Shown here piece by piece: positions 37,101 to 40,100 of a DNA stretch of 64,000 nt. Each line of letters begins with the position of its first letter. Within the stretch, counting starts at the first letter, position 1. The position numbers are program-made. The DNA lies in the NCBI GenBank assembly GCA_024679065.1, contig JAGIQG010000008.1, positions 79,918,001-79,982,000 of the forward strand, read 5' to 3'. Source of the DNA: Sphyrna mokarran. Its lineage: Eukaryota.

Positions 37101-40100
37101 CATCGATACTTACTCTATTAGATGATGCATCTTGTCCATCACCTACTGAGTTGTTAACAATGTTAACTCCTGGTGATAGGCAAGGCAGGAAAATTATTTT
37201 GAGAAATCCCTCCCAATCACCGAAGAACATTCCAGAAAATGATGTTCAGCACGATAAATCACTAGAAGAACCTAACTAAAGTTCCACCTTCTTCCCAACC
37301 ATTATCTCTGTCCCCACTGCCATCATTATGCTTCTTATAACATAAAGCACAAGAGAAGCAGGAAACACTTGCTCTGTCACAGGACCAGCATCACAATCAC
37401 AATCTTCATATCTCACTTCACTTTTCATGTCACTCAATATCTGTCTTGAAGTTTACATCATTTTGATGCCATTGTAGGCAAACTCACAATATCATTTGTG
37501 TGAAGATTCTTGTGCATAGCGTGCAACAGTTTGAAGAAATTTGCATTTTCTCCTTTATGATTGAGTCCATGTCCTCATGTTCCTGGAGCCTTGGTTATTA
37601 TTGATTATTGTGGCACTGAGCTTTCCTATTTTTTTTCAGACCGTGAGCATCTCAAAACTTTACTTCAAACCACAAAGACTCAGATTCAAATCTAATTTTT
37701 TAACGTAACCCTAGTAATTCTCAAGGCTGAAATGTGACCACCCTCCATCAACCACCCATCTTTTTTCCCATAGCTCATTCTTTGGGGAGGAGCAGACCAT
37801 TGCATGTATAAATTAATCACCATGACCTGCCATTTATTTTCTAAAACCGAAATTGTAAATTCTGACCTTCTTACTTTATCACCATGCCTGAGGCTTTTGC
37901 ATTACAAGATGTGTTTCCCAAAGAAATGAAGGCCCTCCCTTAGGTCAATTTGATTAACTGCTTGTATTTATGTATTTTCACTGTTCATTTGCTCCCCCAC
38001 AACATGATTTATAGGCATCAAAATTGATATTTCTCACTCGTTGGGCCAATTTTCCAACTTATCCAAATCCCTTTTTCCATTTATTTTATACAGATTTACA
38101 ATTCCTTCAAAACTGGGATCATTAGTCAATTTGGAGATCTTTGTTGCAGTGTATTCAGTCACATCAATAAAGTTTGGCTCCAGAGTCCAGCCTTGTGGTA
38201 CTGAGGAAGTTAGCTCTATCCATTTAGATGCTGCTTCATTAAGAAATAATCTTTGCATATTATAAGCCAATAATTAGCCTGTTCTCTCCAGTTCCATCTC
38301 TTTCTCTATTTAAAAATTTTGCTAAATTCTAGGTGTACTAAATCTATTGAGTTCCTCTCATTAACAAATTGTTGTATTCTCAAACATTGTTGGAGATTTG
38401 CTAAGCAAAATCTACCAGCTGCAACTCCATATTAAATGCTAACCATGCTAACTTTTATTCTGTAGTGCCATTGCTTCTTTCAGAGTGCTTTTTATTTTAC
38501 CTACCAAACAATGTCAAACTCATAGACCTGTAGCTTCCTAGGTTATTTTTTGTCCTTTTTATAAACTGGCAACACATTTTCACATTTTTTTTAAATGTCC
38601 AATTCAATCCAATCAAAGTCCAATTCAAAGTCTCAGCAAGCGAGATATTCCCAATCCAAGCTGACAGGACAGGCCTCCCACTTGATCTGTCCTGGGCTTG
38701 ATCTACATGATCCTGGGCTTGATCTACATGATCCAAGCTGATTGCACCTTCTCCAAGGCTTGATCTCATTTGCATCTTAGCCAAGAGGCCTAGATGCTAC
38801 TTTAAAAAATTACTTCAAATAAAGCCTCAATATAACCTCATAACTTCAACAAAGTGCAGTATGTTGACACTACTATACCTGATCTTAGCCAAAAGACCGA
38901 GAAACAATATTGCTTTACACCAACAGCCAATCTGTTTCAGTGCCATGTTGGATGCAATTCCTGTAGTCAGCAATTCCCTTCATTAAGGTGTAACCGATTC
39001 TATTCACCACTTACTGTTTGCTCTACTCCATATTTAAATCACAATAAGAAAGTTTATTTTTGATCTTAAGATCCCTCCTATTTAGAGACAGAAACAAAAT
39101 AATTATGTATAAAACAATGGTTTGGCCTCAACCAGGACACTGCATCTAGTTCTGGGCACCACACTTTAGGAAAGATATGAATGCATTACAAAAGCTGAAG
39201 AAAAGATTCACAGGAGTACTTACAGAGATGAAGAGCTTCAGTTAAAATTTTGAAGAACAGAACGATGAAAGGATAATTGACACAGATATTCCAAAGTCAT
39301 GAGAGATCCTGATACTTCACGTGGTCTCACAGGTGCCAAGTATAACTGAGGCATAACCTCCATACTCTTGTATTAAACTCCTCGTGCAATAAATGAAACA
39401 TTTCTTAGCTTTGTTAATTACTTGCTGTATCTATATACTAGTCTTTTGCAATTCATGCTTTAGAATACTCAGATCCCTCTGCATCTCAGAGCTCTGCAAT
39501 CTCTCACTATTTAGATAATATTCTTCCTTATTCATCCTGACAAAATGAATAACCTCACATTTTCTTATACTATATTTCATTTGCCAAATCTTTGTCTTCT
39601 CACACAGCCTTTCTATATCCATTTTTAGCCTCCTTATGTCCTCTCCACAATTTAATTTCCTATCTATCTTTGTGTCATTAGCAAGTTTAACAATTAGACG
39701 ATCAGTCCCTTCATCCAAATCATTTATATAAATTGTAAAAAGTTGAGGCCCAACACTGATCCCTTTGGCACACCACTTATCATATCCTCCAACCTGATAC
39801 GACCCACTTATGCCCACTCTCTGTTTCTTGTTAGCTAGCCAATTTTCAATCCTTGCCAATGTTACCCCTACATCATGACTTTTATTTTCTACAATAACCT
39901 TTGCTGAGGCATCTTATCAACTACCTTCTAAGTATATGCACCAGATCCCTGTCATCCAAAGCACATATTACTTTTACAAAAATCTTCAATAAATTGGTGT
40001 AACATGATTTCCCTATGACAAAACCACACTGATGCTATCTGATTACCTTGAATTTATCCAAGTGCCTGCTATAACATCTTTAATAATAGCTTCTAATATT

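What the first reader, a model, noticed from the sequence alone, without database searches (positions are those of the whole stretch)
38585..38908. Short A-tailed retroelement headed by U2 snRNA nt 1-38, with internal U2 echoes and an snRNA-type octamer
Seen: on the minus strand the unit starts at U2 nt 1 and U2 similarity stops at nt 38, the end of the branch-point recognition sequence. About 80 nt further on is a second U2-like piece (GGCCTCTTGGCTAAGAT, 38790-38774, 16/17 to U2 nt 11-27) overlapping a perfect ATGCAAAT octamer (38775-38768). Four AGATCAAG motifs (U2 nt 24-31) follow at 38759, 38718, 38697 and 38681, then short TTGGA-type repeats and A8. Known: Keno (Tx1) and Utopia retrotransposons insert in U2 at about this position; U1/U2-headed SINEs (SINEU) are described in crocodilians; the octamer is part of the snRNA distal sequence element. 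Inference: this is a dispersed copy of a non-autonomous element born in a U2 gene and transcribed from the U2 promoter, i.e. a chondrichthyan U2-headed SINE or Keno/Utopia derivative. Its RNA would keep the U6-pairing and branch-site segments of U2. I saw no clear TSD.
Basis: partly seen in the sequence, partly recalled or inferred. Interest (0 to 1): 0.8.

Follow-up and report, generated by a model that had tools for sequence, protein, structure and literature searches.

The report
U2 snRNA-headed retroposon-like relic
A decayed stretch of DNA begins with the first 38 bases of U2 spliceosomal RNA and carries further U2 scraps inside it, which looks like a dead copy of a rare "snRNA-headed" jumping element, though with one copy in hand it could also be a one-off accident of reverse transcription.

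Summary
The sequence features are real. On the minus strand, 38908-38871 matches U2 nt 1-38 at 33/38. It is the only Rfam match in the window (44.2 bits, E 1.4e-5). A second U2 stem-loop I piece lies 108 nt downstream (18/20). Four of the window's five AGATCAAG motifs sit within 86 nt. The ATGCAAAT octamer is at chance level (7 found, 6.0 expected).

New points:
- The U2 similarity stops at nt 38|39, the insertion site published for Keno and Utopia.
- The sequence after the A8 run is not U2 nt 39+.
- A 5'-truncated CR1-type LINE fragment starts 7 nt after A8, in the same orientation. The 3' boundary of the element is therefore uncertain.
- No target-site duplication is significant.
- No second copy exists in the 64 kb window.
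- The LINE's nearest named relatives are shark proteins.

Best reading (about 0.45): a dead copy of a SINEU-like, U2-headed retroposon born at a Keno/Utopia-type site. One-off rivals (a 38-nt tailless U2 retropseudogene, or a U2-LINE chimera) remain open. No shark genome or repeat library was available, so copy number is untested.

The parts
38871..38908 (-). Head: U2 snRNA nt 1-38, including stem-loop I and the branch-point recognition segment with G33>A.
   Evidence: cmscan RF00004: 29.2 bits for the head alone. Whole hit 44.2 bits, E 2e-7 locally and 1.4e-5 for the whole window. 33/38 identical to the consensus.
38795..38870 (-). 76-nt spacer of unknown origin. It holds a T6 run inside AATTTTTTA, which cmscan lines up with the U2 Sm site.
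   Evidence: No significant Rfam hit of its own in the body-only search. No LINE ORF2 signal.
38774..38794 (-). Second U2-derived piece, about nt 7-27, forming a stem-loop I type hairpin (TCTAGGCC TCTT GGCTAAGA).
   Evidence: cmscan model positions 7-26, 18/20, 15.1 bits. 18/21 direct repeat with the head; 0 of 1000 shuffles reach it.
38768..38775 (-). ATGCAAAT octamer. A chance-level motif, not treated as functional.
   Evidence: 7 in the window against 6.0 expected.
38650..38766 (-). Array of AGATCAAG-led units (U2 nt 24-31; the last one, AGATCAAGTG, matches nt 24-33). It includes a perfect 21-nt tandem duplication at 38690-38731 and a TCAGCTTGGAT pair.
38597..38632 (-). Repeat of about 12-nt period, 3.2 copies (TTGAATTGGAC type).
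   Evidence: TRF and the repeat finder family D3.
38585..38592 (-). A8 run. A candidate short poly(A) tail, but its status is uncertain.
   Evidence: LINE homology begins 7 nt further on. The candidate TSD after it is not significant.
38028..38578 (-). Context: an old, frameshifted, 5'-truncated CR1-type LINE ORF2 fragment (reverse-transcriptase N-terminal half). It has the same orientation as the U2 unit and abuts it.
   Evidence: tblastn chain: P0002 aa 512-529, 559-599 and 628-709, E 1e-10. Profile of 150 homologs: positions 173-266 at 10.8 bits and 297-381 at 16.7 bits.
39054..40841 (.). Context upstream of the head: a CR1-type LINE copy on the minus strand (P0002 aa 285-802, 40841-39322) and an oppositely oriented piece (aa 777-844, 39054-39260).
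   Evidence: No DNA-level inverted repeat between the two.

Best explanation
The stretch is a dead, roughly 13 %-diverged retroposed copy of a composite RNA. That RNA began at U2 position +1 and left U2 exactly where Keno (Tx1 clade) and Utopia retrotransposons enter U2 genes, between nt 38 and 39.

Inferred history:
1. A short non-autonomous element sat at that site in a U2 gene.
2. It was transcribed from the U2 (pol II) promoter as U2(1-38) plus element.
3. The transcript was reverse-transcribed by a LINE enzyme and inserted away from U2.
4. Earlier rounds of the same process, plus local tandem duplication, left the older partial U2 pieces (nt ~7-27 and 24-33) inside the body.

The result is a U2-headed retroposon of the SINEU kind.

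Shown: the U2 head, its break at nt 38, the internal U2 pieces, and the absence of U2 nt 39+ downstream.

Inferred: the co-transcription origin, the family status, the partner enzyme, and the 3' end at A8.
For: - The head starts at U2 nt 1 and is highly significant.
- The break at nt 38 equals the Keno/Utopia site (PMC4640811 section 6; PMC6136364 passages). Other published U2 heads end elsewhere, for example 32 bp in SINEU-3.
- A second U2 5' piece and further nt 24-33 motifs lie inside the body. This is the pattern Kojima describes for SINEU-1. It is hard to explain if the head landed beside unrelated DNA.
- The 3' flank is not U2 nt 39+, so this is not an in-place insertion in a U2 gene.
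- A crocodilian Tx1 LINE related to Keno carries a U2 head. That shows such heads travel with Tx1-type elements.
- Internal T runs (T4 in the head, T6 in the spacer) argue against pol III transcription, as in SINEU.
Against: - Only one copy is in hand. blastn and nhmmer find no second copy in the 64 kb window. The nhmmer control recovered only 2 of the many old LINE pieces at DNA level, so this miss is weak evidence.
- No target-site duplication is significant: ungapped, 293 of 300 shuffles do as well; gapped after A8, 279/2000 and 268/2000 shuffles and 290/3000 genomic pairs.
- The tail is only A8, and a CR1 LINE fragment starts 7 nt after it. The 3' end may therefore lie elsewhere.
- The only LINEs detected in the window are CR1-type. 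No Tx1/Keno or L1 partner was seen.
- The element folds no better than shuffles (z -0.97).
Confidence: 0.45

Rival explanations
1. A one-off tailless U2 retropseudogene. Only the 38-nt 5' fragment of a U2 RNA was inserted by a LINE enzyme. Everything downstream (38870-38585) is pre-existing local DNA that is prone to tandem duplication.
For: - 3'-truncated, tailless snRNA retropseudogenes flanked by TSDs are a known class (Kojima 2015 discussion).
- The best anchored TSD candidate directly after nt 38 (GTGTAAAGCAAT / GTGTCAACAT) is as good as the one after A8, and rarer in shuffles: 127/2000 against 268/2000.
- The region shows several local duplications.
Against: - It does not explain a second U2 stem-loop I piece 108 nt downstream on the same strand (18/20; about 1e-4 if E 0.6 is rescaled to the U2 family alone, my arithmetic), nor the U2 nt 24-33 motif.
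- The 21-nt repeat does not extend into the flanks, as a DNA-level duplication of flank plus head would.
- The break at exactly nt 38 would be a coincidence.
- The TSD is not significant (p about 0.06).
Confidence: 0.2
2. A one-off chimeric insertion. While copying a CR1-type LINE RNA, the reverse transcriptase switched templates (or the RNAs were ligated) to another RNA and to U2. This gave U2(1-38) - X - 5'-truncated LINE as a single insertion.
For: - The U2 unit and the 5'-truncated LINE fragment are adjacent (7 nt apart) and in the same orientation.
- That is the signature reported for snRNA/LINE-1 and Alu/LINE-1 chimeras (bioRxiv 10.1101/2025.02.02.635956, passages).
- Kojima invokes template switching for U1/U2 additions.
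Against: - Such chimeras are documented for L1, not CR1.
- About 290 nt of non-LINE, non-U2 sequence lies between head and LINE. It shows no LINE ORF2 signal: 285/1000, 131/500 and 145/500 shuffles do as well, and z is about 0.
- The window is full of CR1 fragments, so adjacency can arise from sequential insertions.
- The internal U2 pieces still need extra events.
Confidence: 0.2
3. A strongly diverged full-length U2 pseudogene or variant occupying 38908-38719, as in the end-to-end cmscan alignment (Sm-like AAUUUUUUA plus two 3' hairpins).
For: - cmscan aligns model positions 1-192 end to end at 44.2 bits, with model 39-84 replaced by the same number of bases.
- SINEU-3 is an internally altered U2.
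Against: - The hit is below the gathering score.
- The 15 bits beyond the head equal what the second stem-loop I piece scores alone (15.1 bits). The body alone gives no Sm/SLIII/SLIV hit.
- The head is 87 % identical while the rest is unrecognisable, which uniform decay would not produce.
Confidence: 0.05
4. An in-place Keno/Utopia-type insertion into a U2 gene or pseudogene, with the head being target DNA rather than part of the mobile unit.
For: The break lies at nt 38|39.
Against: - No U2 nt 39+ after A8: cmscan finds no U2 hit at E<=10 in 38380-38600.
- The printed Keno 3' target 20-mer scores at chance there, with 720 of 8528 windows as good.
- There is no other U2 hit in the window at E<=1.
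- No RT-coding element of Tx1 or Utopia type was seen downstream. The LINE pieces found are CR1-type.
Confidence: 0.03

Closest known systems
SINEU-1 (crocodilian snRNA-headed SINEs; Kojima 2015, PMC4494074)
   Same: A short non-coding retroposon with a short U2-derived 5' head, further U1/U2 pieces added or partly duplicated inside, an A tail, internal oligo-T, and no recognisable promoter (sections read).
   Different: The host appears to be a cartilaginous fish, whereas SINEU was reported from crocodilians only. Sequence relatedness could not be tested. Here the head ends at nt 38. No Mariner target or Tx1-Mar partner is seen. Copy number is unknown.
SINEU-3
   Same: Made largely of U2 pieces. 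cmscan can thread the whole 190 nt onto the U2 model.
   Different: SINEU-3 keeps 32 bp plus 83 bp of clear U2 sequence. Here only nt 1-38 and short echoes are recognisable.
Keno (Tx1 clade) and Utopia, the U2-gene-targeting LINEs; also Tx1-11_Crp, which has a U2 head
   Same: The junction falls at U2 nt 38|39. A Tx1 LINE carrying a U2 head is documented.
   Different: There is no coding capacity and no U2 nt 39+ on the 3' side, so this is not a resident insertion in a U2 gene. Similarity to Keno or Utopia ends could not be tested.
Tailless snRNA retropseudogenes and snRNA/LINE-1 chimeric insertions
   Same: A 5' snRNA fragment starting at nt 1, with a 5'-truncated LINE adjacent in the same orientation.
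   Different: Those are one-off L1 products. Here the neighbouring LINE is CR1-type, about 290 nt of other sequence intervenes, and U2 pieces recur inside.

Membership tests
SINEU (snRNA-headed SINEs) | 5' head derived from U1 or U2 snRNA | tested here: met
   U2 nt 1-38 at 33/38; 29.2 bits for the head alone and 44.2 bits overall, E 1.4e-5 for the whole window.
SINEU (snRNA-headed SINEs) | Many dispersed copies sharing one structure (a retrotransposition unit, not a one-off chimera) | not testable with these tools
   No eukaryotic genome or repeat library was available. There is no second copy within 64 kb, which says little.
SINEU (snRNA-headed SINEs) | 3' poly(A) tail | tested here: inconclusive
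   Only A8. A CR1 fragment starts 7 nt later. The TSD after A8 is not significant.
SINEU (snRNA-headed SINEs) | Recurrent addition or partial duplication of snRNA-derived pieces (SINEU-1) | tested here: met
   A second U2 piece at 18/20, an 18/21 repeat with the head, and clustered U2 nt 24-31 motifs.
SINEU (snRNA-headed SINEs) | Sequence similarity to SINEU-1/2/3 consensus sequences | not testable with these tools
   The consensus sequences are in Repbase and in the paper's supplements.
SINEU (snRNA-headed SINEs) | Crocodilian host, Mariner-N4_AMi target preference, Tx1-Mar partner | tested here: not met
   Host: the nearest named LINE relatives are sharks. The neighbouring repeats are CR1 LINE pieces. 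Whether the flanks are Mariner-type was not tested.
Keno / Utopia insertion in a U2 gene | Upstream junction after U2 nt 38 | tested here: met
   Alignment, set.
Keno / Utopia insertion in a U2 gene | U2 nt 39 onward as the 3' flank | tested here: not met
   No U2 hit at E<=10 in 38380-38600. The Keno 3' target 20-mer scores at chance. There is a single U2 hit in the window.
Keno / Utopia insertion in a U2 gene | Encodes RT plus endonuclease, or shares ends with an element that does | tested here: inconclusive
   The 324 nt has no coding capacity of that kind, and its 72-aa open frame has no relatives. Shared ends with Keno or Utopia could not be tested for lack of sequences.
U2 spliceosomal RNA gene (RF00004) | Score at or above the Rfam gathering threshold, with an intact 3' half | tested here: not met
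   44.2 bits against a threshold of 46, so 0 hits in gathering mode. The body alone matches only as stem-loop I. Upstream PSE/DSE were not tested by any tool.
snRNA/LINE chimeric insertion | snRNA part and 5'-truncated LINE adjacent in the same orientation, with one TSD pair around both | tested here: inconclusive
   Adjacency and orientation are met. The LINE 3' end could not be located, so the outer TSD is untested.

The most novel reading that the evidence does not exclude
Cartilaginous fishes carry a family of pol II-born, U2(1-38)-headed retroposons. They would arise when a short Keno/Utopia-derived element sitting at nt 38|39 of a U2 gene is co-transcribed from the U2 promoter. Each return to a U2 gene would add a fresh head on top of the old one.

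This would be the first SINEU-type family outside crocodilians. It would also supply a concrete birth and transcription mechanism for snRNA-headed SINEs, which Kojima 2015 left open.
Probability: 0.3. Interest if true: 0.65.

Novelty: new member of a known kind. Interest (0 to 1): 0.42.

Why it matters
snRNA-headed SINEs have so far been described only in crocodilians. How they are transcribed and how they acquire their heads is unresolved (Kojima 2015, discussion read).

A U2 head that ends exactly at the Keno/Utopia insertion site would tie head acquisition to co-transcription from an interrupted U2 gene, rather than to random template switching. It would also extend the class to an early-branching vertebrate lineage.

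If the locus is a one-off, it is an ordinary retro-artefact of no wider consequence.

Tried and rejected
- Rest of U2 behind the A8 run. By eye, CAGTTTA and AGGACAA looked colinear with U2. cmscan found nothing and the Keno 3' target 20-mer scored at chance. Rejected.
- Body and 'tail' as decayed LINE ORF2. By eye, GLLAKMQMRSSLGEGAI resembled the K-SPGPDG motif region, LNW resembled DW, and FKKNV resembled K-ANV, with matching spacing once duplications were collapsed. Profile and semi-global tests gave no signal: 285/1000, 131/500 and 145/500 shuffles did as well, and z was about 0. Not supported.
- U2 unit as an insertion into the CR1 fragment. Joining the flanks raised the profile score from 4.6 to 7.1 bits, but 66 of 400 random upstream segments did as well. 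Not significant.
- Target-site duplications, ungapped and gapped, at four candidate 3' ends. None significant.
- Paralogous empty site or second copy in the window by blastn and nhmmer. None found.
- Shared 3' tail with the window's CR1 copies. No blastn match. A (TTTGTTC)n run at 63269-63296 looks like a CR1 tail and is unlike the A8 end.
- Pfam scan of 213 of 238 ORFs (24 of the 28 of >=110 aa, and 189 of the 210 of 62-109 aa; the 25 left out lie in tandem-repeat tracts). It gave no RT or endonuclease hit. This was a false negative, since RT pieces are present.
- Protein search with the body's 72-aa open frame. 1 candidate, none scored.
- RNA fold of the unit: z -0.97.
- tRNA scan: 0 genes.
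- DNA comparison of LINE copy 1 with the region: chance level.
- Literature for U2-headed SINEs in sharks. Nothing found in the searchable library.
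Full report
What is there

Read on the minus strand, 38908-38871 is ATTGTTTCTCGGTCTTTTGGCTAAGATCAGGTATAGTA.
- Rfam's U2 model (RF00004) aligns it to positions 1-38 at 33 of 38 identical letters. The differences are at positions 3, 5, 13, 30 and 33.
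- The head alone scores 29.2 bits.
- The whole hit, 38908-38719, scores 44.2 bits, with E 2e-7 in a 901-nt search and 1.4e-5 over the whole window. It is the only match to any of 4227 families with E <= 1.
- It falls just short of the curated threshold of 46, so the gathering-mode scan gave no match.
- After nt 38 the alignment collapses to 3 of 6 letters with a gap and low posterior.

Internal U2 pieces and repeats

- 108 nt downstream, 38794-38775 aligns to U2 positions 7-26 at 18/20 and keeps the stem-loop I pairing (15.1 bits, E 0.6 across all families).
- This piece forms an 18/21 direct repeat with the head that none of 1000 shuffles reaches. The repeat does not extend into the flanks.
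- AGATCAAG (U2 nt 24-31) occurs five times in the window, and four of those lie in 38681-38766.
- Two of the four belong to a perfect 21-nt tandem duplication at 38690-38731. The last reads AGATCAAGTG, which is U2 nt 24-33.
- A roughly 12-nt repeat (38597-38632) and an A8 run (38585-38592) follow.
- The ATGCAAAT octamer is not special: 7 in the window against 6.0 expected.
- The unit folds no better than shuffles (z -0.97).

Is the end-to-end U2 alignment real?

cmscan threads the whole 190 nt onto U2, with an Sm-like AAUUUUUUA and two 3' hairpins. However:
- The 15 bits beyond the head equal what the second stem-loop I piece scores alone.
- The body by itself gives no Sm or 3'-hairpin hit.
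- An 87 %-identical head next to an unrecognisable remainder is not what uniform decay of a full U2 copy would give.

I treat the full-length reading as unlikely.

The nt 38 boundary

The Utopia paper states that U2 sequence downstream of Utopia insertions starts at nt 39, that nt 1-38 is expected upstream, and that Keno has the identical 3' flank (PMC4640811, section 6 read in full). A second paper prints the Keno 3' target sequence (PMC6136364, passages). So the head ends at the one position in U2 that is known to be a retrotransposon entry site.

The other half of such an insertion is absent:
- cmscan finds no U2 in 38380-38600 even at E <= 10.
- The printed 20-nt Keno target scores at chance level there, with 720 of 8528 window segments as good.
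- No other U2 fragment exists in the window.

Hence the head is not the stump of an interrupted U2 gene in place. It travelled with what follows it, or it arrived alone.

Surroundings

The Pfam scans of 213 of the window's 238 open frames found no transposon domains. The 25 frames left out lie in tandem-repeat tracts. This result was a false negative.
- The 160-aa frame at 39431-39913 (minus strand) is a LINE reverse-transcriptase piece.
- tblastn with a 958-aa relative (P0002) finds at least ten LINE pieces across the window.
- The family is CR1-type. The best named relatives are Chiloscyllium punctatum proteins (62-68 % identity) and a Callorhinchus milii protein; bird CR1 proteins follow at about 50 %.
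- Closer unnamed hits were not traced.

A profile built from 150 homologs shows an old, frameshifted CR1 fragment on the same strand as the U2 unit. It runs from 38578 (NVLPVYKK..GSYRSMSLT, the start of the RT domain) to about 38028. It therefore begins 7 nt after A8.

What that does to the 'A-tailed element'

I tested three ways the LINE could change the picture.

(a) The body and 'tail' are themselves decayed LINE ORF2.
- By eye the spacing looked right.
- The profile and semi-global tests were flat: 285 of 1000, 131 of 500 and 145 of 500 shuffles did as well, and z was about 0.

(b) The U2 unit is an insertion into the LINE.
- Joining the flanks raised the profile score from 4.6 to 7.1 bits and gave a tidy W-KA|-V-P-YKK reading.
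- But 66 of 400 random upstream segments did as well.

(c) Target-site duplications.
- The best anchored candidates are TGTAAAGCAAT/TGTGAAAAT after A8 (268-279 of 2000 shuffles and 290 of 3000 genomic pairs as good) and GTGTAAAGCAAT/GTGTCAACAT right after U2 nt 38 (127 of 2000).
- Neither is significant, and they point to different units.

So the 3' boundary is not established. A8 may be a short tail, or merely the edge of the LINE junction.

Explanations

Three things carry it:
- the head starts at nt 1;
- the head ends at nt 38;
- U2 5' pieces recur inside the body.

That recurrence is the structure Kojima reports for SINEU-1 (section read). It is also what one expects if an element repeatedly re-enters U2 genes. 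A crocodilian Tx1 LINE related to Keno carries a U2 head, and SINEU families likewise contain oligo-T and lack pol III promoters.

Against this reading stand the single copy, the missing TSD, the minimal tail, and the absence of any Tx1 or L1 partner in the window.

Two one-off rivals at about 0.2 each remain:
- A 38-nt tailless U2 retropseudogene. This is a known class, and its TSD candidate is no worse. It leaves the internal U2 pieces and the nt 38 coincidence unexplained.
- A template-switch or ligation chimera of U2, an unknown RNA and the adjoining 5'-truncated LINE. Same-orientation adjacency is the published signature for L1 chimeras (passages). But the LINE here is CR1-type, and about 290 nt of unrelated sequence intervenes.

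Comparison and novelty

- Functionally and structurally the closest thing is SINEU-1.
- Membership in SINEU as a sequence family could not be tested, because the consensus sequences were out of reach (supplements closed; no Repbase or Dfam).
- The host appears different.
- It is not a Keno/Utopia insertion in place, because the 3' flank test failed.
- It is not a U2 gene.
- Five literature searches found no report of snRNA-headed SINEs in cartilaginous fishes in the searchable library. Kojima 2015 states that none were detected outside crocodilians. Repbase and Dfam entries may exist that I could not see.

If the family is real, it is a new member of a known kind, with an informative twist: the nt 38 boundary.

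What stayed unchecked

- Copy number in the source genome.
- Similarity to catalogued repeats.
- Upstream snRNA promoter elements in master copies.
- Transcription.

No eukaryotic genome collection was available.

Noticed in passing
window 1-3550: A 25-bp satellite (consensus CCAACCCAGTTTATATAGTCTCAAT) of about 141 copies at 88 % match. It runs off the left edge of the window, and the first 4 kb has a strong negative GC skew.
   Followed up: no
window 6806-7216, 9839-10003, 21340-21872, 35823-36023, 38028-38578, 39054-40841, 44362-44653, 60718-61055, 61989-62735: At least ten decayed CR1-type LINE ORF2 fragments on both strands. The best kept is 61989-62735 (+), 50 % identical to P0002 and reaching aa 950 of 958. 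At DNA level they barely recognise each other.
   Followed up: partly
window 63269-63296: A (TTTGTTC)n microsatellite about 530 nt after the end of ORF2 homology of the CR1 copy at 61989-62735. It is plausibly that LINE's 3' repeat tail.
   Followed up: partly
window 39260-39322: Two CR1 pieces meet tail to tail. The minus-strand copy ends at aa 802 and a plus-strand piece ends at aa 844, so both lack their 3' ends. There is no DNA-level inverted repeat between them. The rearrangement is unexplained.
   Followed up: partly
window 28007-29723: A long, loose array of 17/34-bp repeats (TATTAA-containing units) spread over about 1.7 kb.
   Followed up: no
window 8079-8454, 25943-26366 and 31381-31726: Further minisatellites: 39/78/117-bp units, CT-rich 24/70/161-bp units, and a 181-bp unit at 1.9 copies and 89 % match.
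   Followed up: no
window 39431-39913 (-): Pfam hmmscan at E <= 0.01 missed this clear reverse-transcriptase fragment, which a protein search identified at E 2.5e-34. Pfam negatives on decayed open frames in this window are therefore unreliable.
   Followed up: yes
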